Positions 5,946-52,070 of a stretch of DNA of 64,000 nt are shown here, piece by piece; position 1 is the first letter of the stretch; every line of letters begins with the position of its first letter. This DNA is from Prorocentrum cordatum (Eukaryota): positions 248,001 to 312,000 of the forward strand of contig CAUYUJ010000126.1 of the NCBI GenBank assembly GCA_963575745.1. Reading direction: 5' to 3'. The translations under genes and the position numbers were made by a program. Under the pieces are notes generated by a model. The model was not told where the DNA came from and did no database searches. It saw only the letters and a list, made by a program, of their open reading frames with translations.

Positions 5946-7086
5946 AACGGCTGTTACGTAACAATTGAACAACGGATCGCAAAACGAACCGACAACGGCG
6001 AGACGGCAATCCCAAAACGGACAAACAACTGCCCCCTCAAACAAAACAAAACGTACATCTTGAAAACGGAACAAAACGTCACAATCGTGTTAAGAACATC
6101 TAAGCCCGATGCAGCTCCAAAAGCCCCGAACCTGCGCAAGAGCGCACCGAAATGGCCCAAGACGTCCGCAAGACGGCCCAACAAGCGCCCATGACGACCC
6201 ACGAGAACTCCATGGTGATTCCCATGCACACACACATATATATATATATATATATACATATACAGATTTGTATGCACATCTATATCTAGATATACACACA
6301 CTCATACCTAAATCTGCCAAGGCCGGAAAAGGCGAAAAACCTCTCGACCCGCTTCCATCAGGGCCCGCCTGCTTCATGGCGAACTTTTCCGCGTCGCCGA
6401 GACGGGCGGCACGTGGCCAGCCTGGAGGGCTTCGCCGCCTCGCAGCCGTCACTCCTCCCGGTCGTCCTCGCGGTCCTGCAGAAGGCGGGCGCGGCCGCAC
6501 GCCCCCCTCGCCGCGACCCCCGCCGGGCCCCCGCCGCCCCTGCTCGCTTCGTTTCTCCCTTCCCCTCTCCCTCCCCCTCATTTCTCTCTCAACTTGCTCC
6601 CCCCATCCTCCCCGTGCCCCTTCCGTTCCTCGCCCTCCCTCCTCCCTCATTCTCCTTTGCCCCGTCCACGCCCGACTCCCTCTCTTCCCTCCTCACTTCA
6701 CACCATCCCTCCTCCTCCTCCTCCTCCTCGCCTGCGCCGACCGGTCCTGAATGGCGAAGCCGTCCTCCATTTTCATCTGCACCAGCCTGCGGGGGCCCCT
6801 GGAAGCCATGGGGTGGGCCGGACGGCAGAGGAGGCGCGGATCAGATCGACTCGGCAGGGGGAAGCGCCAAGCGCCGCAGCGCCGTCTGCCCCCCCCCGTT
6901 GGGGGGTGCCGTAAGTGTGGAGCTTAAAGCTCAAAGACAGCTCGACCTGCCCGGCGGACAATCGTCAGCCAAGCCTCAACCTTTCTCCCTGGCTAGGGGC
7001 TCAAGATTTGAGCCCTCCTGAAGATAGAAAAACCATTATGTACTATGAGATGGGTAGTTTGCTCATAGCACTCGTGGCGTGTGGCG

Positions 7087-10750: not shown

Positions 10751-11739
10751 AGCTCACCCAGTTCGGAGTCGATCAGATTCGGCCACACGCACTCAGACTC
10801 TCTCGCAGTCACACTCATTCACATCCCAACGGTCATACGCAGACCCGCTCATGTCGGGGGCGCGCAAACATGGATTAGCGATCCATGGATTTGGCGCGCG
10901 GTCGCAAATCCATGGATCGCGGGAGGTGCCCTCCCCAAAATGCGGCTGGCGCCGCCTCGCTCGGCGGCGGAAATCGCGATTTCCCATGGAGACGGGACGC
11001 CCCCTTGATCCATGTTTGCGATCGCCCGATCATGCGCGGCCTCCCGTACCCACACTCGCTCACACTCCGACTCTTTTCTGCCGAGGCTCAGACTCTCGGA
11101 ACAGAGTGCGTCAGACAATTGAGGCACACGCGGGGGCCTCCTCGCCGAGTCGCTCCTCGCATTGTCCAGCAGTCGGGAGGCTCATCTTGAGCCCGACCAG
11201 GGGGCTGGGGCCGCGGTGTCGTGAAGGCGTGGGGAACGAAAGGAACGACCAGCAGAAGCACAACCAACTGCGTAAAAACAACTTCTGGGGGTCCGCGAGG
11301 ACTTCTTGGATCCGCGCTGGACGCCCCTCCCTGGCGCGCGGAGCGCGCTCGGGGCCCAACGCAGATCCAAGAAACCCGCGCGGGGCCTCGAACATTCCGT
11401 TCGTGCCGCTCGTTTTGTTTTTTGGGGAAAGGAGGGACTGGCTGGAGGGGAAGGTGCTGACATGGCCCGGGCGGCGCACGACCACGACACGTTGGCGACA
11501 GGGCCTCGACAGTGAGCCCGCACGCTCCCGGGCGGGCTGAAGGAACCCTATAGGCCCCTATCGTTCTGCAGCACGCTGCGAGCCGGATCGATCTGCGAGG
11601 GTCCCGGCGCTCGAGGCCGCGCGAGATCGCCCCGAGGTGGACAGAAATGCGGCGCCAGGATTTCAAGGCCTGACCGAAGGATTGCAAAAAAACCAAAGAT
11701 TGCAAAAAAAACAAAAAACACAGGATTGCAAAAGAGACA

Positions 11740-34979: not shown

Positions 34980-35006
34980 GTATCGTAGTACACGGAGGGG
35001 CCAAAA

Positions 35007-36306
35007 TCAAGCCAGCGTTGCGACTCCTACCGAGACTGTGGAAGAACTATGGCTAGACACGTCCAGGGCCTTGGAATGAAGACCAATACGATGCTGACAT
35101 TCGGCCGGAGGCGTGGCTTCGTCGCTATGGTCGTCCTCCCCGAGGAGGCCTCCAACAGAACACCCTGCTCGCCCCAGATGCTTGACGAAGAGGTTCAAGA
35201 AGCTAGTGCCACTGCGCGTGCGGCCATACACGACTTTCAGCATGACCTTACCCAAGGTAAGCCACTGTGGAGCCTCGTCAGCGTCACTGCTCGACGCGTA
35301 GTGGTACCATCCTCTCCTGGTTGCCAGTGCCCAAGACCCTGTGATGTTTATCTCTTGGAAGTAGATATCCTGCGCAACTCCCGCCCATTCGAAGCGCCTC
35401 GGCCACCACGCGAAGTAATGTGTGTTCAGGGCCCTGCCCGCGAGGGATATGTATCAACACATGCTGGCCCACTTTCATCAGGTCATATCGCTCGCCATAC
35501 ATATTTTGAAGGTGGGGATCTCCAAAGCAGTCGCCGTGCCCGAGACACTGGGCGTCGGGCTGGGCGTCGGACTCGGCGTCGGACTCGGCACGGGCTGGGC
35601 GTCGGGCTCGGCGTCGGGCTGGGCGTCGGGCTGGACGTCGGACTGGGCGTGGGACTGGGCGTCGGACTGGGCTCCGGGCTGGGCGTTTGACTGTCCTCAA
35701 GTTGGAACGCGATCTCCCGAATATATGGTTGATAACCAGTTGAGGTTTGCGTGATCACCAGTCGAAGATGCTGCACTGGGGTGTCGTAATCGACGTCGAA
35801 GTCCTGCACGTTATTAATTCCCGTGGTCACTGATCCTAGCGAAACAAAAACAGAGTTGAATGTTCCGACTTGTGCCGTTGACGTGTAAAGCACCGCCTTT
35901 GTAACATCATGTGTCGTATCGCCCCAATGTTGGATTCGAATACCTTGCAGAGTGTACTCCGAGCCAAGATTAAACTCGATCCACCATGCGTTATGGTACC
36001 GGGGTGCCCCCCAGCATTCCAAAATGTGTTTGTATTACCATCCATAGTGTTTGTCCCAACTTGAGTTGAATGAGCTGTTTCCCAATCGACGATCCAAGAC
36101 GTGTCCTGGGACCACGCGACTGTCTCCATACCGCGGTTCGTGATGTTGAAGAACTCCTGCTTGAGCTTTCCAGTGCCCAAGCTTGCCGAGTTCGTAAGGT
36201 CGTTCTTGTTGGACATGTCCTGGGTCATGGACACCACATGCAACGCGGCCCCTCCTCCAACTGAAGACAACAGCCAAACAACGGTAATCACGAGAGAATG
36301 GGCCAT
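35007..36306 (-). CDS. Intronless retrocopy: putative secreted protein with F5/8 type C (discoidin/CBM32-like) domain, Pro/Ser/Thr linker and GDPH-motif (vWD-like) C-terminal domain; several frameshifts as assembled
   Basis: Signal-like MAHSLVITVVWLLSS; DGNTNTFW, WWIEFNLGSEYTLQGIRIQ and LRLVIT...IREIAF; (PSPT)n; GDPHLQNMYGERYDLMK...GGLLGEDDH; stop at 35007-35009. One frameshift lies in a G run at ~36007-36012. SL 140 nt upstream of the ATG. Confidence 0.8.
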
Positions 36307-36433
36307 TGTGCCGGAAAAGACTGACCCGTAATCACGGAGAAACGAGCTCGAATATTCGTGTGTGTGTGTGTGTGCGTGTGTTCATATAGCGGCCGGCCGA
36401 TCCACACAGATGCTCCAACCGGAGGAACAGCTG

Positions 36434-36468
36434 CTTGAGGCAAGCGCTTGAGCCAAAATGGCTACGGA
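36434..36468 (-). other. Genomic DinoSL (36447-36468, 22/22) followed by a relic SL (36434-36446)
   Basis: Reverse complement reads TCCGTAGCCATTTTGGCTCAAG-cgcttgcctcaag. Confidence 0.97.
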
Positions 36469-43280: not shown

Positions 43281-43491
43281 TTAGGAGGCAACTGCTGGGA
43301 GGTCTTCGTCGGAAAGATTAAGGAGAATTAAGCCCCAGTCCGGGGCCGTTGCGCCAGAGTGGGCCTCGGATTGAGCGGGATTAGGCCGGATTAAGCGGGA
43401 TTGAGCCGGATTAAGCGGGATGACGCGGGATTAAGCCGGATTAAGGACCAGGGCAAAATCAGAATTTGACCTCCCAGGAGTTGCATCCGAA
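43281..43491. mobile_element. 211-bp MITE with 24-bp TIRs, 6-bp TSD and internal 10-mer repeats
   Basis: ttaggaggcaactgctgggaggtc / gacctcccaggagttgcatccgaa (3 mismatches). ggagag at 43275-80 and 43492-97. (ggattaagcc/g)n inside. Confidence 0.8.
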
Positions 43492-43875
43492 GGAGAGCGT
43501 CGGCACAGCTCTGCCCCCCAGGTCATCGTGCGCTCGTACCCCCTGCCAGACTGAGGGAGGCGCAGGGGCGCGCTGCGCCATCGGCATCGACATGCACGGG
43601 GGACCAGTGTACTTCAAGCACACGCCATTTTTCTTGTGATATCCCTCGTCGTCTGTCTCGCTCCCCCCTTCTCCCCTCGAAGAAGAAAGGGGCATGCGCA
43701 TGAACTTCCGAAGCGCGTGCATTTCTTTGATCGGCGCTTGGCCCCTCCGGGATGCGCGGAGCGCGCCAGGGGCGGCTATTGAGGCGCCGCCAGGGGGCCA
43801 AGCGCATGTCCAGAAAATCCGCGCGGACCTCCGAAAGTCTATGCTTGAGCCCCGCTTCCTCCTTCGGCGCCCCCC

Positions 43876-44001
43876 CCTCCTCCTCCTCCTCCTCCTCCTC
43901 CTCCTCCTCCTCCTCCTCCTCCTCCTCCTCCTCCTCCTCCTCCTCCTCCTCCTGCTCTTCCCTCCTCCTGGTCATCTGCCTCCTCCTCCTCCTCTTCCTC
44001 C
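43876..44001. repeat. (CCT)n microsatellite, 5' flank of the intact LINE
   Basis: Direct reading. Confidence 0.97.
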
Positions 44002-44023
44002 TCCGTAGCCATCTTGGCTCAAG
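44002..44023 (+). other. DinoSL at the first nucleotide of the retrotransposon (21/22)
   Basis: TCCGTAGCCATCTTGGCTCAAG versus DCCGTAGCCATTTTGGCTCAAG. Confidence 0.95.
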
Positions 44024-44163
44024 ATGCCTAGTTCCGCAGGGGAACAAGTGGATACCGCTAGTCCGCGGCCAGTGCCAGGGCTCTCTAGCCCGACAGTTTT
44101 GTTCAACACTCCGTGTGCCTCCTGCTGCCCGCAGGTGAGCTTTCTCTGTTCCTCAGCTCGTCC

Positions 44164-45389
44164 ATGGCGCCTCCGCAGCAGCGCAGCGGCTACGTCAAGT
44201 GCTACTCCTGCTCGTACGCCTGGAACTGGAAGACCAAGCAGACGTGCTACTGGTGTGGCAAAGCTTTGGCGCCGTGGACAGATGCCCCGCCTCCGGTGCA
44301 AGGTGCTTGGGCGGCCCGTGTCTCAGCCGCAGCCCAGGCCGAGGCCAAGTGCACCCAGCAGTCCAGCCCCGAGGGAGGTTGGGAGCCGTGGTCATCATGG
44401 CCCAATTCCCGCCGCCGCCGTGGCAAGGGCAACGGCAAGGACCAAGACGACGACTGGTGGGCCAGCAAGAACGACACCCCCAAGGCTCGCTCCGCCGAGG
44501 ACATCTTGGCGGAGCTCCAGGCGATCGCCCCCCACATCGACAAGGCAGCCATTGACGGCATCAAGTCGCAGATTCCGCCGCCCCAGCCGCAGAAGCCAGC
44601 CGACCTCAACGACATCTACAGCCGCGCCCAGGCTACGGAGCGCCGCTGCAAGAACAACCTGGAGAGGCTGCTGGAGAGCGAGCAGAAGGCGCTCAGCTGG
44701 TACACAGAGCGCAAGCAGGCGTCGGAGGAGGCCGCCTACAAGTTGGCTGAAGCCCAGGCGGAGGCCCAAGCGGCTCTCGACGCACTCCAAGCCGCCCGCA
44801 AGGGCGGCACAGCTACTTCTACGCCGTCGCAGCAGAACCCGACCTTCAACCTCACCAGCCTCCTCGAGGACGGCGACATCTCCATCGAAGCGGGTGCAGC
44901 GTTCGATCTCCAAGGCCTCGACATCGACGACAGCGACCGCCAGGCATGGGAATCCCTGCAACAGCGCTTTGCCACGGAGCTCAAGGCCAAGGTCACTGAG
45001 CTCTTCGGCAACACCGCCAGCCGCATCAGCCAGCTCCGAGCAGAGGCCAGCACCATGCGCACGCGCTTCGCCTCCAAGCGGCAGCGCGCTGACGAGGATG
45101 GGCACGCCAGAGAGGGAGGTGGATCACCGCCCGCCGCCTCGGCTGCAGCAGGCGAACCCCCAGCGGCAGCCGCAGCGGATGCTGAGGGCACTGCGCCCTC
45201 TCCGCCAGCGGCGCCAAGCGATGAGCCTCCCGCACCTGCTGCTGGCGTTTCTTCTGACGGCGGCTACGCCACACTGCCTGTACCTGCACTCAAAAGGACC
45301 CCGACCTCGAAGACAAGGCACAGAAGATGCTCAACCAGATGCGCAAGCCCACTGCTGCCGCCGCCGCTGGACCGCAGCAGCCTCTTTAG
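44164..45389 (+). CDS. LINE ORF1: RanBP2-like Zn finger and coiled coil (end inferred across a 1-nt frameshift at ~45292)
   Basis: MAPPQQRSGYVKCYSCSYAWNWKTKQTCYWCG; heptad region ERRCKNNLERLLE...QAALDALQAA. The -1 frame from 45291 gives KDPDLEDKAQKMLNQMRK...PL* (TAG 45387-89). As assembled, the frame instead runs on into the endonuclease. Confidence 0.7.
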
Positions 45390-45480
45390 CCGACTACAAC
45401 CCGACCCTGGACGGAATGGTGAGACGGGGCGCCTACCGTCAGAGACCACGATCTACGACAACCCACCAATCATCAACACA

Positions 45481-48400
45481 ATGGACGCAGTCCTCGACCC
45501 GTTCGACGAGCTGGCCGAGTTGGACGCCCACATCGATTTCGCAGTTTCCGAGCAGTACGCTACCGCCCCGCCCGAGACGCTGTCCTCGGTAGGGGGCGAT
45601 GAGGCGGCACAGACCGTCGACCCCGTGGTATGGGACCCAGGGCAGCCGCAGCGTGCTACGCGGTCCGACCCTGATGCCGCTCCGCCCGAGACGCTGTCCT
45701 CGGTAGGGAGCGATGAGACGGCGCAAGCTGTCGACGTGCATGTGGTACAGGAACCAGGGGAGCCGTCGCCAAAGGCAAACCCTGATGCCGCCCCGCCCAA
45801 GACGCAGCCCTTGGTAGGGGGCGATGAGATCGCGAAAGCTGTCGACACGCCCGCAGGGAAAGGGCCATGGAAGCCCAGCAGCCCGAGAGCCGACCCTAGT
45901 CCCGCCTACCAAGACGAAGGCCCTACGAAGCCCCCGCTGTCAGACCATTCCCTGTTCTTCTCCAACATTACTCAATGGGGACCACAGTCGGAGAAATGGT
46001 TGGCAGGACCAGGCAAGCAATATCAGATGGTAGCATTAGTTGAAACACACATCTCGCCTGGAAAAGCGCCGCCCATGTACGACAAACTAGCAGCGGATGG
46101 TTGGAGAATATCATCGACTACGGCCACTCCTACCAGTAGATCAGACGGCGGCAACACGGGTGGCGAGATCATCTTATCCAGGTACCATGTCCAGGCCACC
46201 ACGTTCAACCACCTCCGTGACCTTGCCATTTCCCAGCGCAGGCCTGACCCGTTCCTCGGCTTCACGCCCATGGTATGGCACAGACGTTCTGGCAACTTGG
46301 TTGTTATTGCCGCGTATCTGGAACCCCACAGGCAGATCGAGGGTGCAGTACACGATAAGCTACTTTCGCTGGGAGCGTTCGTTACTATGCTCACAGACCC
46401 TTGGATCATCCTGGCCGATTGGAACATGACACCTGAGCAGCTTGCAGCGACAGAGTGGCTCGCCAAATGGAATGCTACCATCGTGCGAGCACCTGGATCC
46501 GCCACTTGCGACAAGGGCCAGGGACTCACGCTTGATTTCGCATTGGTCAAGACTGGCATCGAGCACACGATCTCCATTCGCCAGTGCCCCACAGTACCCT
46601 GGGCCACCCACGTTGGCCTTGAAGTTCGAGCAGGCAGTGCAGACCCCTGGTGGTATCAGTCGATCGATACCCCCAAGTCCTTCCCCATAGTGGACAGACC
46701 CAGGATTCCGCCAGACCCCAACAGCAAGACCGCCATCAAGAAACGTAAAACAGCTGAAGCTCGAGCAGCACGTCTCCGTGATCTACCTCCTGAACTCCAA
46801 CAAGCAGCAGCACAGCTTCAGCCACAAGGCGAGCCCGCAGCACAGGAACCTATCCCCTACGCCATCCCGATGGACTTGCGGGAAAACAATGGCAGGAAGC
46901 GGTACCCACACGTTGTAAGCAGCCACACGCGCACTTCGTGTACAGACACTGGGTGCACGACGCCGACGTCCTCAACCTCAAGTACGCCAAATGGGTCACG
47001 GCGCTCGAGAACACCATGATCAGCCACCACCAGATTGACCCGAAGGCAGCTGCAACATACACTGGCCGAGCTCAGGGCTACCAGTTATCTTGGAAGAAGA
47101 CAGCTGCTGCCCCAGGCCGCGTACACGTACACGACCCACATTCGGAATGGTGGGCAATTACGCTCACCCTCATCAAGCGCTACGCCGCGCTTCACGACAA
47201 GCCCAAGCACGCAGCGCTTATGCAGCAGCAGGCCACCATCATCCAGCAGCGCGCGGACCACTTCAACACTCACATGCACGACCTTCAGTTCGAGAAGGAT
47301 GAGGACACCATCTTCCGCTGGTTTGCGCTCGTCTGGGCCCCGCACCTGGACAAGGATGACACCGACGACTTGGTCACCATTACCGCTACCTGGGCCTCCA
47401 GAGCCCTCTCGGCCGCCCTCGCCAAGTCCAAGAGGGCCTACGGGGCTTGGCTCGCCCAGCAATGGAAGCACCGCCCTGGAGTACTACACGCCCATGTCAA
47501 GCCAGCACCCGCACGTCACATCGAGGCCTACACGGCCAACCTGACCATCGCTGACCCCGCCGTCATCATGGACAACAAGAAGCAACAATGGCAGCAAGTA
47601 TGGCAAGCCACCGAGACCTCCGACGACATCCTCCAGGCCCTGTCAAAGGCCAAGGCAGCAGCTGCTCATCAACCGCTCGAGCCCATCACAGCCGAGATCG
47701 TACACCGCATTCACGGCCGCATGCCACCCAGTAAAGCACACGGAGTTGACGCCCTAGGACCTCGCGACCTCCATCGATTACCAGAACCAGCAGTCGAAGC
47801 TTATGCAGATATCCTCAACTCAGTGGAGCAAGCAGGCATCTGGCCACTACAAATTTCAGGCACCATTGCAGCTCTCGCCGCCAAGAAGTCTGGAGGCGAC
47901 AGGGTCCTCGGCATGCTCCCTCATATGGCCAGACTCTGGTCTCGCATTAGATCTACCGCATCGGCAGCCTGGACGCAAGGTCTGGACGACTTTTGGACTA
48001 CAGCCATCAAAGGCTCTTCAGCTCTCCAAGCCGCCCTACATAGGGCCTTGTTAGACGAGACAGCCTCAGCACTTGGCATACAGTCGGCCACCTTGCTATT
48101 AGACATCCAGAAATTCTACGACAATATCAAGCTCGCCAACCTCATCATGGTCGGCCTCAACTGCGGCTTTCCCCCCATCCTTCTATTATTGGAGGTGCAG
48201 CTATACCTGGCGCCCAGATTCTTGCGCAGTCGGCAATGGGTGAGTATGCCTATCTTCGCCTCCAAAGGCATCATTGCAGGCTCCCCTCACGGCACCACCC
48301 TGGCACGACTTATTTTGCTACCAATTATTCGACAAGCCCAAGCTCAGGCAGAGCTTGCCCAGGTGTGGACCTTCGTCGACGACACTGCTCTTCGAGTCGA

Positions 48401-50876
48401 AGGAGTCCTACGTGCTTTACAGAAGCACCTCTCCCGTGCCGCCAGGACGCTCTGCGACGGATTAAAGGAGTTCGAGCTGCCTATCTCAGACAAGACCGTC
48501 CTCATCGGCTCCACTCCCAAGGTCCGCCACTCGCTAGCCAAGAAGATGCGACAGTACGACATCCCAGTTACTGCGACCTCCACGGCCGTCGACCTTGGAG
48601 TTGACGCGGCCGCGGCTACTCGACGTGTACAAGCCAAAGCCGGGAAGCGACAGATCTCAGCCACAGCCAGGTTTCGCAAGATACACCGACTACGGAGCAC
48701 TGCACAGCAGGCCCGAATCTCAGCTGGACTGTGGCGCACTGGTGCTCTCCCAGAAGGAGTATTCGGTCATCAGGTTCACGGCCTCGCTCGGCACGCTCTA
48801 CTACGCTGGCGGCGTCAGGCCGCCATTGCAGCCACGGGCGCTGCCGCAGGCCGATGCCTCGCCTCCCTCCTCGGCGCCACTTTTGACGGCATGGGCCCAG
48901 GAGTTTCCCTAAGGATCGAGTTCATCGAGGCTTGGCTTCAGCGCTGGATGCGCCACCCGAGCACGCACGCCAGGATCATCAGAGCCTGGCCAAGGATCAA
49001 GACCACCTTGCTCGCCGCTGGCCCCAAGCTGTGGTGCGAGGTCAAGGGCCCCACAGGCGCGGCCATCGCGACCCTGCTGGAGGCTAGTTGGGAGCCGACC
49101 TCAGCTACCAAGTGGAGGCGTACGAAGGACGGCTACATCGAGGAGTGGAACCTCCCCCCTGCCGACGACCCCGACCTCCTCGACGCCGACATTCACACAG
49201 TATTGCAGGACCTCTGCGAGGATTTACACAGGCTCCTCTGGACGCAGGCCGCTACGCATGCCCATGGAGACACGCTGGCTGGAGGCGCAGACATGGTCAC
49301 TATCCGCATTGAACAAAGGAGGTTCCTCGCAAACGGCGACTTCAGCGACTGGGCCCTCAACAACACCATCATCAGCGGAGGACAGTGGACCAGAGACCGC
49401 CTCCACAACGCGGGCTACCAGATCGACAGGAACTGCGACCGCTGCAACGCTGGAGTTCCTGAAACCTTGTTTGACCGAATGTGGCAGTGCGAGGCGAACG
49501 TTGGGCCCGAGTTTGAGGCCAGCGACGAGCTACTGCCGCGAGCCTTGGCGGGGGCCGACGCCGACCCCGCCTTGTGGCTCCGTGGCATTCCCTCTGTTGC
49601 TCTCACTACGCCCACGTTCGAGCCATTGACTGGGAGGGACGGGTGGGAGTTTGTTGGTGCGGTGCGGGAGGGTTTGCCGTCCTGGGAAGGTGCTCGTAAC
49701 GCAGAGGGTGAGTTGTTTCTTTTTGGTGACGGGTCTGGCGGTGCCTTTTCTGACGACGTCAGGCGACGTCGCGTCGGATCTGGCCTCGCGGCCCTCCGTT
49801 GGAACCCTCCCTCGGCCTCCTGGACCCTCCGCGCGGGCCTCCTTGCCCCCCTCCCAGGCCCCCGCCAGACCGTCCCAAGAGGAGAATTATATGCGTTTTG
49901 CCTGGCACTAGAGACGTGCCATCAGGATTTCACGTTTGTTACCGATCACCTAGCCTTGCAGCGTGGTTGGCAGAATGGCAGATGTCTCAGGCCAGGCAGC
50001 CTCAGAGGTAAGAATAAGAATGGAGATCTCTGGCTGAGAATTCGGCATCTCGTGCAGGATCGACCTTGCGGCGTCTCCTCGGTCACGGTGCTCTGGACCC
50101 CATCTCATGCCGATCCCCAGACTCTTCACGGTTTTCAGAAATTCCTAGCTCTCGGCAATCAGCAAGCCGATGAGCTTGCGGGAAGCGCGGCCCACAAGTC
50201 GGCCACCCTTGCCCTCCCGCCTGTGCCCAGGACTGACGAATACGATGCTATCGCAGCGATTGTCCGACAGCGGGCACGACTAATCCTACGTTCCTTAGGA
50301 AAGAATTCAGAGCCTCGAGGACTGTGGCCAGAGAGGCAACCCACGCAGGAGGCAGCCCCTCGTTCTCTGTTGCAGACCGCGATCGCGGCTTCACAGCACA
50401 AATTCGAGCGGTGTGCAGACAAATGGCGATGCTGTGCCTGCCTCATCATCGTCGATGCTTGCCAGGTTATTCCAGCCGCCGCCACGGAGTGTGTACCGCC
50501 TTGCCCCCTTCCCGAGTTTGCTGCTTGTGGCGAGGTGCTGTGGTCGAGGGGTCCCCGTGTGATCAGTGGCAAGGCGATACACCCCTCCCACACGTTGGCC
50601 ACCATCCCCAAGTGGCAAATGTTCTTCTGCGTGAAGTGCGGCCATACGGCCATACACCAGGTCAAAAGCTTACAGTTCCCTTGCCCTCTCACCCACCAAG
50701 TGGGAGAGCGCAGGGCCCTGGGACCCACTGGCAAAGGCCTCGAAAACCTCAGCAGGATCAGGCGAGGCCTCCATCCGTCCAGATCGGGTCCCAGCAAGTC
50801 TGTTCTAGAGGCTATGCATGTTTCGGCAGCCGAAGCCGCGATCGTTTCTCACGCGGCTGGCGCTGCCTCTGAGTAA
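45481..50876 (+). CDS. LINE ORF2 polyprotein: APE endonuclease, RT, zf-RVT, RNase H, C-terminal Cys/His fingers (one frameshift at ~46883; start codon inferred)
   Basis: APE: FSNIT, LVETH, AAYLEP, ILADWN, TLDF, WATH. RT: KAHGVD, DRVLGML, LLDIQKFYD, GIIAGSP, FVDD (48372-83). CDRC...ETL...WQC. RNase H: FGDGSG, RGELYA, VTDH, NGDLW, WTPSH, GNQQADELA. Then WRCCAC and HPSH...FCVKCG. Confidence 0.92.
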
Positions 50877-50884
50877 ATTGCGAG

Positions 50885-50963
50885 GCCAGGGGGGCCTGTC
50901 GCGGTGTGCCGTGGGATGTCGCCCCCCACGGCTCTCCGAGAAATTCTGGATGGCCCCCCTGGC
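50885..50963 (+). other. Structured 3' UTR element of the LINE
   Basis: Perfect 12-bp stem gccaggggggcc (50885-96) / ggcccccctggc (50952-63) enclosing an 8-bp hairpin gccgtggg/cccacggc and a tccgagaa/ttctgga hairpin. Confidence 0.75.
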
Positions 50964-51224
50964 GTCTCTGGGTTCCCGAACGGACTACGTCCGATTGCTC
51001 CACTCCACTCCTCCTCTTCCTCCTCCTCCTCCGTCATCCTCCCACCTCCCCCGAAAATAGCCAATACCTTCTGAAGGCATGCGAGAGCAATCGACAATAC
51101 CCCCCGACGGCGACGACGATGATACCATTATGGGAGTCGAGGGCCGAGGATCTGATGTCGAACGTCGATGATCCAGGATCAAGGGTGGTAGCCCCGAAAG
51201 GCCAGAGGAGGGCTCAGAGGTGCC

Positions 51225-52070
51225 CCTCCAGGGCCTCGAGCACTCGATCTTTGAAGCCTCGAGCACTCGATCCTCGATCTTTGAAGCCTCAGCAGGGCTC
51301 AGAGGACCCTCGAGCTTTGAAGCCTCGAGCACTCGATCCTCGATCGTCGGCGTCGGCGGCAGCGCCGGGCCAGGCGGAGGCGCGCAGACGCGCTCCCAGG
51401 TGCTGCTCGGGTCCGCCCGCAGGACGACGCCTGGGCTGCCGCCACTCCCTTCGCGCGAGCCGTCGGCGGCGGCGCCGTCGCCGTCGCCGCTGGGCACAGG
51501 GCCTCCATGGGGGCCGCGAGAGATGGCAATCGGAACGTGGCCGCAGGAACGCAGGCCGAACCTCGCCGGCCCGGGGGTGGAAAAGACGTGTGGGACGTTT
51601 ACACGTCCCCCCTCCCTTTGTCCGCCTCCCCCAGGGCCCAAGATCTTGTACAATACACACAGGCGAGAACAACACGCTCAATGAAGGATGTCGCTGGCGC
51701 CTAGGCGGCAGCAGCATTTTTTATCACATATGTGGCGCACGCACACGCCGGAGCATCATTTCGAGACAAGCGTGTCGCCAGAATGCATGTGTCACGCCCA
51801 TTCCGTGCGGGCCTGGCTCGGTGTCACCAAGGTCCGGGTTACGTCAGGTGGGCAGTCCACGTGAAAGGGGGGGTTGTACAAGGGGGGGGTCCCCCTACGA
51901 AGGGGGGGGGTCCCACATGGGGGTTCCCCTACGAAGGGGGGGGGGGTTGTACAAGGGGGGGGGGTCCCCCTTGGGGGTCCCTCTACGAAGGGGGTCCCTC
52001 TACGAAGGGGGAGGGGGGGGTTGTACAAGGGAGGGGGGGGTCCCCCTACGAAGGGGGGGGGGTCCCACAC
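51225..52070. repeat. Two small tandem arrays (cctcgagcactcgatc..., 51225-51345; cccctacgaagggggg, 51865-52070)
   Basis: Direct reading. Confidence 0.8.

What the first reader, a model, noticed from the sequence alone, without database searches (positions are those of the whole stretch)
44002..51007. A full-length LINE whose first 22 nt are the dinoflagellate spliced leader
Seen: the element begins, directly after its flanking direct repeat, with TCCGTAGCCATCTTGGCTCAAG (21/22 to DinoSL), 140 nt before the ORF1 ATG. Known: DinoSL is added to mRNAs by trans-splicing, and LINEs usually define their 5' end with an internal promoter or a self-cleaving ribozyme. Trypanosome SLACS/CRE and nematode NeSL elements insert into SL-RNA genes, but here the SL is part of the insert and no SL-RNA intron follows. 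Inference: the transposition intermediate was a trans-spliced RNA copied to its very 5' end. The integrated SL contains AG dinucleotides that can act as the acceptor in the next round, so trans-splicing could release, cap and regenerate the 5' end from read-through transcripts with no promoter. I do not know of this being described as a LINE strategy.
Basis: partly seen in the sequence, partly recalled or inferred. Interest (0 to 1): 0.95.

Follow-up and report, generated by a model that had tools for sequence, protein, structure and literature searches.

The report
Dinoflagellate LINE starting with spliced leader
A 7-kb jumping gene in a dinoflagellate genome begins with the 22-letter leader that these cells splice onto their messenger RNAs, so it was most likely copied from a fully processed messenger, which is expected from known dinoflagellate biology but has not been spelled out for such elements.

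Summary
Window 44002-44023 matches 21 of 22 bases of DinoSL, with 0 such matches expected by chance. It sits directly after a 16-nt direct repeat (43986-44001 = 51008-51023) and 140 nt before the ORF1 ATG. The element (44002-51007) is a multi-copy non-LTR retrotransposon with an APE-fold endonuclease, an RT nearest LINE-1 ORF2p, and RNase H. "ORF1" and "ORF2" are one long ORF that is offset by one base in this copy. No SL-RNA intron, known ribozyme or LTR is present.

The best reading is that the template was a trans-spliced LINE mRNA copied to within 3 nt of its 5' end. This is the same route as known DinoSL-tagged retrogenes. I could not see the 5' ends of other copies of this family: no genome is held, and the read-laying tool masked the junction.

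Distant relatives (22-45% identity) in metagenome contigs give partial support. Of about 14 contigs that plausibly hold a 5' end, two carry clear tandem SL relics there, two carry weaker ones, and ten carry nothing convincing.

Nine literature searches found no explicit description. Song 2017 did note RT functions enriched among DinoSL-relict genes. I rate this a new variant of a known kind, of moderate interest.

The parts
43870..44001 (+). Upstream (CTC)n polypyrimidine microsatellite into which the element is inserted. The last 16 nt (43986-44001) are the left copy of the target-site duplication.
   Evidence: pure pyrimidine run at 43870-43953; TSD CTCCTCCTCTTCCTCC.
44002..44023 (+). DinoSL, 21 of 22 (T>C at position 12), forming the first 22 nt of the element. 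It has AG dinucleotides at SL positions 6-7 and 21-22. Its first 3 nt (TCC) are a microhomology with the target.
44024..44163 (+). 5' UTR of 140 nt. It has no Rfam family and no unusual fold. A pyrimidine run followed by AG (44140-44156) lies 7 nt before the ATG.
   Evidence: no ribozyme; the only hit, mir-2450 at E 0.27, lies upstream of the element; z-score -0.68..
44164..47019 (+). 'ORF1' frame (951 aa). It holds an N-terminal CxxC...CxxC motif (44200-44256, read by eye), an Ala/Pro-rich part with internal tandem repeats (45563-45846), and an APE-type endonuclease (about 45928-46776).
   Evidence: Exo_endo_phos E 6e-4, below cutoff; 36% identity to the EN part of P0003; model pLDDT 83; best fold match is the TRAS1 endonuclease at E 2.7e-12, followed by APE1 and LINE-1 EN.
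46882..46890 (+). Site of the one-base frame offset that separates the EN frame from the RT frame in this copy. Other copies read straight through.
   Evidence: homology to P0003 runs in frame 1 to 46776 and in frame 3 from 46929, upstream of the ATG at 47016. P0159 residues 1-470 and 469-740 are contiguous across 46884-46890. table 4: one extra base at 46882 or 46884 in contigs of X1, X2 and X3.
47016..50876 (+). 'ORF2' frame (1286 aa from its ATG; the frame is open from 46794). It holds RT (47883-48452), RNase H (49845-50192) and a C-terminal Cys/His-rich part.
   Evidence: RVT_1 E 2.4e-8; RNase_H E 0.0075; the profile hits LINE-1 ORF2p at E 1.2e-11 and RNase HI at E 3.7e-9; conserved Cys/His columns.
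50877..51007 (+). 3' UTR ending ...GCTCCACTCCA. There is no poly(A) tail.
51008..51023 (+). Right copy of the 16-nt target-site duplication, followed by the rest of the CTC tract (to about 51032).
   Evidence: table 2: depth in four public runs falls to 0 / 0 / 0.2 / 0 in 51127-51427.
34986..36468 (-). Comparator in the same window: a processed retro-pseudogene that starts with a perfect DinoSL (36468-36447). It is flanked on both sides by (GAG)n, has no poly(A) tail, and its ORF is broken.

Best explanation
This is a 7,006-bp copy of a multi-copy non-LTR retrotransposon. Its protein domains, in order, are a zinc-knuckle-like N-terminus, an APE endonuclease, RT, RNase H and a Cys/His tail. In the family these form one long ORF, which is offset by one base in this copy. 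The copy is inserted in a (CTC)n microsatellite with a 16-19-nt target-site duplication.

Its first 22 nt are the dinoflagellate spliced leader. Most likely the RNA that was reverse-transcribed was a mature LINE mRNA that had received DinoSL by trans-splicing, as most dinoflagellate nuclear mRNAs are thought to. Target-primed reverse transcription then ran to, or within 3 nt of, the capped 5' end. This is the same route that creates DinoSL-tagged retrogenes.

Shown: the anatomy (SL inside the TSD, exon-exact boundary, no intron, no ribozyme, LINE domains, multi-copy).

Inferred: the RNA intermediate.

A further inference carries lower confidence. In this LINE clade, SL addition is a regular step. 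Integrated copies are transcribed from upstream and re-capped at AG acceptors in or at the end of their own SL. This either restores the SL exactly (acceptor at ...CAAG|) or stacks 15-nt relics (acceptor at CCGTAG|).
For: - The SL match is non-random and positioned exactly at the element's 5' end.
- The TSD encloses the SL.
- The sequence after the SL is not an SL-RNA intron, and no Rfam ribozyme or SL family hit lies in 43500-44700.
- LINE identity rests on several results: RVT_1 at E 2.4e-8; profile hits to LINE-1 ORF2p at E 1.2e-11 and to RNase HI; and an endonuclease model that matches the TRAS1, APE1 and L1 endonucleases.
- The element is multi-copy with near-identical relatives. In four public runs 1358, 1269, 314 and 490 contigs were laid on the stretch. 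Of these, 239, 264, 56 and 62 were at least 99% alike. Depth ended after about 51.1 kb.
- A second SL-headed retrocopy in the same window shows that the process operates in this genome.
- Relatives from metagenome contigs (78 loci) show relics at 5' ends:
  - L147 has two tandem 15-nt relics (0 and 1 mismatch) plus a degenerate third, about 80 nt before its ORF1 ATG.
  - L133 has a (GTA)n tract followed by TGGCTCAAG twice and a degenerate third unit, about 100 nt before the ATG.
  - L131 has TTGGCTCAAG followed by TTGGCCCGAG just before an ATG.
  - L134 has GCATTTCGGCTCCAG exactly at the junction between the 3' end of one copy and the start of the next.
- The literature establishes DinoSL recycling and its 15-nt relic form (PMC7245778; PMC12014239; PMC6050394).
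Against: - No other copy of this family could be examined at its 5' end. No genome is held. The tool skipped 43857-44010 as a repeat. ORF1 N-terminus and 5' UTR searches of public collections found nothing.
- There is no RNA evidence.
- The SL has a T>C change. A freshly added SL should be canonical, so the change is either a later mutation, a variant SL gene, or an inherited SL. The copy does differ from the family majority at many sites (table 3: many places where all laid contigs read another letter).
- This copy carries no relic behind the SL, so it gives no direct sign of more than one round.
- Among about 14 relatives with a plausible 5' region, about 10 show only fragments indistinguishable from chance.
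- My unbiased rule found SL-suffix hits in only 3 of 30 loci. The expected number was 0.86 and the Poisson P was 0.057.
- The tandem-motif test was 9 loci on the + strand against 0 on the - strand. However, 6 of the 9 hits are inside ORFs, so it is not specific.
- The TSD is low-complexity sequence.
Confidence: 0.75

Rival explanations
1. One-off event. The family normally defines its 5' end in another way, such as its own promoter. This copy happens to descend from a rare read-through transcript that was trans-spliced at a cryptic AG just upstream of 44024. SL is not a feature of the family.
For: - Only one copy was seen at its 5' end.
- There is no relic behind the SL.
- About 10 of about 14 relatives lack a convincing SL.
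- The automated test is weak, with P 0.057.
Against: - At least two, and perhaps four, divergent relatives carry SL relics at their 5' ends, two of them in tandem. This requires repeated rounds.
- Dinoflagellate mRNAs are generally SL-capped (PMC12014239 and PMC6050394, passages). A translated LINE mRNA would therefore be expected to carry SL.
Confidence: 0.13
2. The integrated SL is kept because it works as a minimal promoter, through the TTT(T/G) motif proposed for retrogenes by Song et al. 2017. The SL would then be an inherited, internal part of the element rather than renewed each round.
For: - PMC5585692 (abstract and passages) proposes that the DinoSL relict supplies a core promoter motif.
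- The T>C variant could be inherited.
Against: - Transcription started at or after a motif inside the SL would not reproduce the full SL at the RNA's 5' end. The SL would be lost in the next copy unless it were re-added by trans-splicing.
- In this copy the TTTT is changed to TCTT, which removes the proposed motif.
- This reading is compatible with, rather than an alternative to, the best explanation.
Confidence: 0.07
3. Template switch. The RT reached the LINE RNA's own 5' end and jumped onto a free SL RNA, as in the human U6-L1 chimeras (recalled from memory, not checked here).
For: SL RNA is abundant. The 5' junction shows that end-joining with microhomology occurs (TCC).
Against: A jump onto SL RNA would copy from its 3' end and so include the SL-RNA intron. 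Here only the 22-nt exon is present, joined exactly at the exon boundary. The tandem 15-nt relics in L147 fit splicing at the internal AG, not template jumps.
Confidence: 0.03
4. Site-specific insertion into an SL-RNA gene or SL array, like the SLACS/CRE/CZAR elements of trypanosomatids or NeSL-1 of nematodes (recalled from memory).
For: SL sequence abuts a LINE.
Against: - The SL lies inside the TSD, at the element's 5' end and in sense orientation.
- The upstream flank is a CTC microsatellite, not an SL gene.
- No SL intron and no second half of an SL gene follows the 3' end.
- There is no Rfam hit.
Confidence: 0.02

Closest known systems
DinoSL-relict retrogenes ('recycling of processed cDNAs', Slamovits & Keeling 2008; Song et al. 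2017). Seen here through passages of PMC6050394, PMC5585692, PMC12014239 and PMC7245778; the 2008 paper itself was not read.
   Same: In both, a DNA-encoded DinoSL sits at the 5' end of a retroposed unit, and tandem 15-nt relics (CCATTTTGGCTCAAG) build up after repeated rounds. The window itself holds one ordinary example (36468-34986, minus strand).
   Different: Here the retroposed unit is the autonomous LINE itself, which encodes EN and RT, rather than a host gene. The papers read treat retroposition and retrotransposons as separate things. bioRxiv 10.1101/783902 (passages) even states that they are independent processes. PMC6050394 calls the mediating element unknown and favours LTR elements.
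SL-gene-specific LINEs: SLACS, CZAR and CRE (trypanosomatids) and NeSL-1 (C. elegans). Recalled from memory, not checked in a paper here.
   Same: A LINE is physically associated with spliced-leader sequence in an organism that trans-splices.
   Different: Those elements insert into SL-RNA genes, so the SL is target DNA. Here the SL is part of the insert, the target is a microsatellite, and no SL intron is present.
5'-end definition from co-transcripts by HDV-like ribozymes (R2, L1Tc; recalled) and the Pr77 internal promoter of L1Tc/ingi (PMC1874656 and PMC8190864, abstracts in the listing).
   Same: These address the same problem: how a LINE without a conventional upstream promoter obtains a defined, heritable 5' end.
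   Different: No ribozyme family hit and no unusual fold were found in the 5' UTR. Pr77 gives unspliced transcripts in a trans-splicing organism, which is the opposite of what is inferred here.
Target-repeat-specific LINEs of the R1 group (TRAS1; microsatellite-specific Waldo, Mino, Kibi, Koshi and Dong, recalled from memory).
   Same: The endonuclease model's best structural match is the TRAS1 endonuclease (E 2.7e-12). The element and the relative L133 are each flanked on both sides by one microsatellite, (CTC)n and (GTA)n respectively.
   Different: Only one copy per family was seen, so target specificity is not established. No RT phylogeny was made. Sequence identity to TRAS1 EN is 12%.

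Membership tests
Non-LTR (LINE) retrotransposon, APE type | Reverse transcriptase of the non-LTR type | tested here: met
   RVT_1 scored E 2.4e-8 and 34.4 bits against a cutoff of 29.6. The profile of the element plus 9 relatives hits LINE-1 ORF2p at E 1.2e-11 and R2 at only 6e-4. 4542 library proteins scored E<=1e-3.
Non-LTR (LINE) retrotransposon, APE type | APE-like endonuclease N-terminal to the RT | tested here: met
   Pfam Exo_endo_phos scored only E 6e-4, below its cutoff. phmmer against PDB found nothing. The AlphaFold model (pLDDT 83) matches TRAS1 EN at E 2.7e-12, APE1, and L1 EN at TM 0.58-0.71. Catalytic residues were read by eye only.
Non-LTR (LINE) retrotransposon, APE type | Target-site duplication, no terminal repeats, many copies | tested here: met
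   A 16-nt TSD is present. Self-BLAST shows no terminal direct repeats, only an internal 114-nt tandem. The element is multi-copy in four public runs.
Non-LTR (LINE) retrotransposon, APE type | Intact coding capacity (autonomous copy) | tested here: not met
   The EN and RT frames are offset by one base near 46882-46890, whereas other copies are continuous (table 4). The family qualifies but this copy does not.
DinoSL-tagged retrocopy | DinoSL encoded in DNA at the 5' end of a retroposed unit, inside its TSD | tested here: met
DinoSL-tagged retrocopy | Transcript carries a new SL followed by the relic | not testable with these tools
   No RNA run was listed as a holder. The contigs laid cannot show RNA ends.
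SL-gene-specific LINE (SLACS/CRE/NeSL type) | Insertion at a fixed site within SL-RNA genes, with the SL gene's halves on both flanks | tested here: not met
   The flanks are a CTC microsatellite. No SL intron and no SL remnant follows the 3' end.
Ribozyme-processed LINE (R2/L1Tc type) | Self-cleaving ribozyme at the 5' end | tested here: not met
   An Rfam scan of 43500-44700 at E<=1 gave no ribozyme. The fold z-score was -0.68. Only described families can be found this way.
Microsatellite-targeting LINE | Copies consistently flanked by one microsatellite type | tested here: inconclusive
   This copy lies in (CTC)n and L133 lies in (GTA)n on both sides. The sample is one copy per family. CTC/GAG tracts are common in the window, with about 8 clusters.

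The most novel reading that the evidence does not exclude
DinoSL trans-splicing is the normal way a whole clade of dinoflagellate LINEs makes its 5' end. The elements have no promoter. They land in microsatellites or behind older elements' tails and are transcribed by read-through. They are then released, capped and made translatable by SL addition at AG acceptors within their own integrated SL, so the SL is a heritable, self-renewing part of the element. In this copy the acceptors sit behind a 130-nt polypyrimidine tract supplied by the target. The same EN/RT machinery would be the long-sought engine that makes the SL-tagged retrogenes, reported as more than 20% of genes in some dinoflagellates.
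Probability: 0.35. Interest if true: 0.8.

Novelty: new variant of a known kind. Interest (0 to 1): 0.6.

Why it matters
The papers read here call the agent of dinoflagellate retroposition unknown (PMC5585692, PMC6050394). One preprint treats retroposition and retrotransposition as independent (10.1101/783902).

An autonomous LINE whose own copies carry the SL tag links the two. The window also holds an SL-headed processed pseudogene in the same kind of microsatellite. Together these give a concrete candidate family to test.

For transposon biology it would add trans-splicing to the known ways a LINE secures a defined, capped 5' end without carrying a promoter. The known ways are an internal promoter and a ribozyme.

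It also has a practical consequence. Counts of 'retrogenes' made by searching for DinoSL upstream of gene models will include LINE copies.

Tried and rejected
- Whole-genome search: no genome is held for this window.
- Other copies in the window: none.
- Sequencing runs: no RNA holder was listed.
- Laying contigs of X1, X2, X3 and X5: the tool skipped 43857-44010 as a repeat. The SL junction, and any loose ends there, could not be seen. Whether other copies read T or C at 44013 was not among the 40 of 765 differences shown.
- ORF1 N-terminus (160 aa) in viral contigs gave one 31-residue match, judged irrelevant. In metagenome contigs it gave 0 relatives among 85 pattern matches.
- ORF2 in viral contigs gave 0 and in genome contigs 0.
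- Alignment A1 in viral contigs gave 0.
- A 5' UTR 20-mer in genome contigs gave 0.
- The DinoSL 21-mer in viral contigs gave 119 stretches, but tblastn with 156 LINE proteins found no LINE in them; there were 3 weak hits at E>1e-4. The one RVT_1 hit in bin G001 lies in 18.6% GC DNA with no SL nearby.
- Earlier findings of this scan: nothing.
- Pfam on ten flanking ORFs gave no real family, so co-orientation with host genes could not be judged.
- No TSD was found for L147.
- The tandem-motif strand test turned out unspecific, because 6 of its 9 hits were internal.
- Literature: 9 searches and passages of 15 papers gave no statement that LINE copies begin with DinoSL. Subscription papers (Slamovits & Keeling 2008; Lin et al. 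2015; McEwan et al. 2008) and all supplements were not seen and may bear on this. The paper cap stopped a look at PMC3315495.


Full report
**1. The observation.**
Window 44002-44023 reads TCCGTAGCCATCTTGGCTCAAG. The canonical DinoSL is DCCGTAGCCATTTTGGCTCAAG, as quoted in PMC7245778 (passages). The match is therefore 21 of 22, with T>C at SL position 12.

The 21-nt core with up to 3 mismatches occurs twice in the window, at 44003-44023 (+) and 36447-36467 (-). One hundred dinucleotide shuffles gave no match at all.

The 16 nt before the SL (43986-44001, CTCCTCCTCTTCCTCC) recur exactly at 51008-51023. The repeat is 19 nt if the SL's first TCC is counted as microhomology. The ORF1 ATG is at 44164, 140 nt after the SL.

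**2. What the element is.**
The RT frame (47016-50876) hits RVT_1 at E 2.4e-8 and, weakly, RNase_H. A profile of it with nine relatives hits human LINE-1 ORF2p at E 1.2e-11, bacterial RNase HI at E 3.7e-9, and R2 only at 6e-4.

The C-terminal third of 'ORF1' is an endonuclease. The evidence is as follows:
- Pfam Exo_endo_phos scores only E 6e-4.
- phmmer against PDB finds nothing.
- The region is 36% identical to the N-terminal part of the single-ORF relative P0003.
- An AlphaFold model (pLDDT 83) matches the TRAS1 endonuclease best (E 2.7e-12), then APE1 and the LINE-1 endonuclease.

There are no terminal repeats and no poly(A) tail. The 3' end is ...GCTCCACTCCA.

The nearest proteins carry the source name Prorocentrum cordatum (91-96% identity over parts). 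A 39%-identical full-length relative comes from an unnamed ENA record.

**3. It is full-length but not intact.**
Homology to P0003 runs in the ORF1 frame to 46776. It resumes in the ORF2 frame at 46929, which is 87 nt upstream of ORF2's ATG.

A named protein of another genomic copy, P0159, is contiguous across the switch. Its residues 1-470 lie on 45481-46890 and residues 469-740 on 46884-47699. Contigs of three public runs carry one extra base at 46882 or 46884 (table 4).

The family therefore has one long ORF of about 2,200 aa, like the giant ORFs in L147, L143, L185 and L189. This copy is frameshifted.

It also differs from all laid contigs at many single positions (table 3). It has therefore aged since insertion, or it belongs to a minor subfamily. 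This makes the T>C in its SL unremarkable.

**4. Copy number.**
Contigs of four public runs covered the element throughout. The numbers laid were 1358, 1269, 314 and 490. Those at least 99% alike numbered 239, 264, 56 and 62. Most were 90-95% alike. Depth fell to 0 / 0 / 0.2 / 0 in 51127-51427.

The tool skipped 43857-44010 as a repeat, so the 5' junction of other copies was not visible. No genome is held. This is the main gap in the case.

**5. Rivals excluded by anatomy.**
- *SL-RNA gene insertion (SLACS/NeSL type).* The SL lies inside the TSD, the flank is a microsatellite, and ATGCC rather than an intron follows the SL.
- *Ribozyme.* No Rfam family hit lies in 43500-44700 apart from a chance miRNA hit at E 0.27 upstream. 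The 5' UTR folds no better than shuffles (z -0.68).
- *Template jump onto free SL RNA.* This would bring in intron sequence, and only the exact exon is present.

**6. Does SL belong to the life cycle of such LINEs?**
I searched metagenome contigs with the RT alignment. Of 537 pattern matches, 109 were relatives; the tool kept the best 80, which form 78 distinct loci. They total 294,489 nt and are 22-45% identical. About 14 of them plausibly contain a 5' region.

Two show clear SL relics there:
- L147 has ...AAG|CCATTTTGGCTCAAG|CCATTTTGGCTCTAG|CCATATTTGGGTCAGG, about 80 nt before its ORF1 ATG. Relics with at most 1 mismatch are expected about 0.01 times per strand in this much DNA (my arithmetic).
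- L133 has (GTA)n, then GTGGCTCAAG|TGGCTCAAG|TTTCGGCTCTGAG, about 100 nt before its ATG. The same (GTA)n follows its 3' end.

Two are weaker:
- L131 has TTGGCTCAAG|TTGGCCCGAG immediately before an ATG.
- L134 has GCATTTCGGCTCCAG exactly where the 3' end of one copy meets the start of the next.

The other ten (L124, L125, L135, L141-L144, L164, L185, L189) show only fragments that chance could give. Their true 5' ends are unmapped.

Two statistical tests were less persuasive:
- An unbiased rule took -300 to +100 around the first ATG of the first closed ORF of at least 400 aa. It found hits in 3 of 30 loci against 0.86 expected (Poisson P 0.057).
- A tandem-motif test gave 9 loci on the + strand against 0 on the - strand (shuffles: mean 0.7). 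However, 6 of the 9 hits were internal, so the test is not specific.

The 15-nt unit in L147 is exactly the relic left when a new SL is spliced to the AG at positions 6-7 of an integrated SL (PMC12014239, passages). At least some LINEs of this clade have therefore gone through repeated rounds of SL addition and retrotransposition.

**7. Mechanism.**
Shown: the anatomy described above.

Inferred:
- (a) The template was an SL-capped LINE mRNA.
- (b) TPRT reached the 5' end, and the 5' junction was sealed with 3-nt microhomology.
- (c) Integrated copies can be transcribed from upstream and trans-spliced again.

In this copy the absence of a relic means one of two things. Either the parent's acceptor lay directly before ATGCC, which an integrated SL provides as ...CAAG|, or the parent was a founder.

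One detail is worth noting. The target supplies about 130 nt of polypyrimidine directly upstream of the SL's AGs, which is a good 3' splice-site context. This does not generalise, because L133 lies in (GTA)n and the window's retro-pseudogene lies in (GAG)n.

Song et al.'s idea that the relic's TTT(T/G) acts as a promoter (PMC5585692) is a complementary possibility. Here that motif is mutated.

**8. Surroundings.**
The other DinoSL in the window heads a 1.48-kb processed pseudogene. It is on the minus strand (36468 to 34986), its ORF is broken, it has no poly(A) tail, and it has (GAG)n on both sides.

CTC/GAG tracts are frequent in the window, with about 8 clusters. Even so, both SL-headed inserts sit in such tracts.

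Relatives also abut microsatellites or older elements' 3' ends, and the next unit often starts with an SL-like sequence:
- L126, position 6432;
- L132, position 12336, after (CAT)n;
- L170, position 3215, after (TA)n.

This hints at tail or microsatellite-directed insertion and at LINE-mediated retroposition. The sample is small.

**9. Comparison with the literature.**
Nine searches and passages of 15 papers gave no statement that LINE copies begin with DinoSL.
- PMC6050394 calls the mediating element unknown and leans towards Ty1/copia.
- Song 2017 found 'RNA-dependent DNA replication' enriched among DinoSL-relict genes. RT genes with relict SL had therefore been seen but were read differently.
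- The exact C variant of the SL is the Perkinsus SL1 (PMC3101222). I take this as coincidence with a point mutation.

Subscription papers and all supplements were not seen.

**10. Verdict.**
This is a new variant of a known kind, namely DinoSL recycling applied to the autonomous LINE itself. Interest is about 0.6. It is expected in hindsight but undocumented, and it makes the question 'what drives dinoflagellate retroposition?' directly testable.

Noticed in passing
L002-L120 (IMG/VR contigs, mostly giant-virus bins such as GVMAG-M-3300023179-82, -2, 3300023174-52 and -43): The exact DinoSL 21-mer occurs in 119 stretches, giving 136 distinct contexts, of DNA that is mostly 15-26% GC. This is therefore not dinoflagellate nuclear DNA. 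The SL is almost always preceded by A and by recurrent AT-rich motifs (for example tttttatttttaaatataatttttA|CCGTAG and ...actaaaccA|CCGTAG), and it is followed by different sequence each time. This looks like a host spliced leader encoded at the start of many viral transcription units, that is, SL mimicry behind a viral promoter-like motif. One listing search showed no paper describing it.
   Followed up: partly
window 34986-36468 (minus strand): A processed retro-pseudogene headed by a perfect DinoSL. It is flanked on both sides by (GAG)n, has no poly(A) tail, and its ORF breaks after 156 aa. It sits in the same kind of microsatellite as the LINE but in the opposite relative orientation.
   Followed up: partly
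window 44013: The T>C change makes the LINE's SL core identical to the Perkinsus marinus SL1 (ACCGTAGCCATCTTGGCTCAAG; PMC3101222). It is probably a point mutation. Horizontal origin from a perkinsozoan parasite was not tested.
   Followed up: no
window 45563-45846: Three imperfect tandem units of about 114 nt (78-90% identity) lie inside the ORF1 frame. They encode repeats such as AAPPETLSSVGGDE.AQ.VD.
   Followed up: no
window 44024-45592 and 44140-44156: An ATG directly follows the SL and opens a 522-aa ORF in another frame, probably an effect of the high GC content. A pyrimidine run ending in AG (CTTTCTCTGTTCCTCAG) lies 7 nt before the ORF1 ATG and could be an alternative trans-splice acceptor.
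   Followed up: no
L133:1-60 and 6230-6420; L132:12220-12360; L134:340-400; L126:6430-6460; L170:3160-3240: Relatives of the LINE end in or next to their own microsatellite, (GTA)n, (CAT)n or (TA)n, or sit head-to-tail. The next unit downstream often begins with an SL-like sequence. This suggests insertion directed to tails or microsatellites.
   Followed up: partly
L142:40-135: Eight tandem 11-12-nt units of the type ATCATTTTGGG lie about 400 nt upstream of a LINE relative's ORF1 in a 45% GC contig. They share CATTTTGG with the middle of DinoSL. Their meaning is unknown.
   Followed up: no
window 43301-43800: Another repeat family lies just upstream of the CTC tract. It shows high depth in all four runs, with loose ends at 43491, 43742 and 43797. 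There is no second copy in the window apart from a 62-nt match at 11294.
   Followed up: partly
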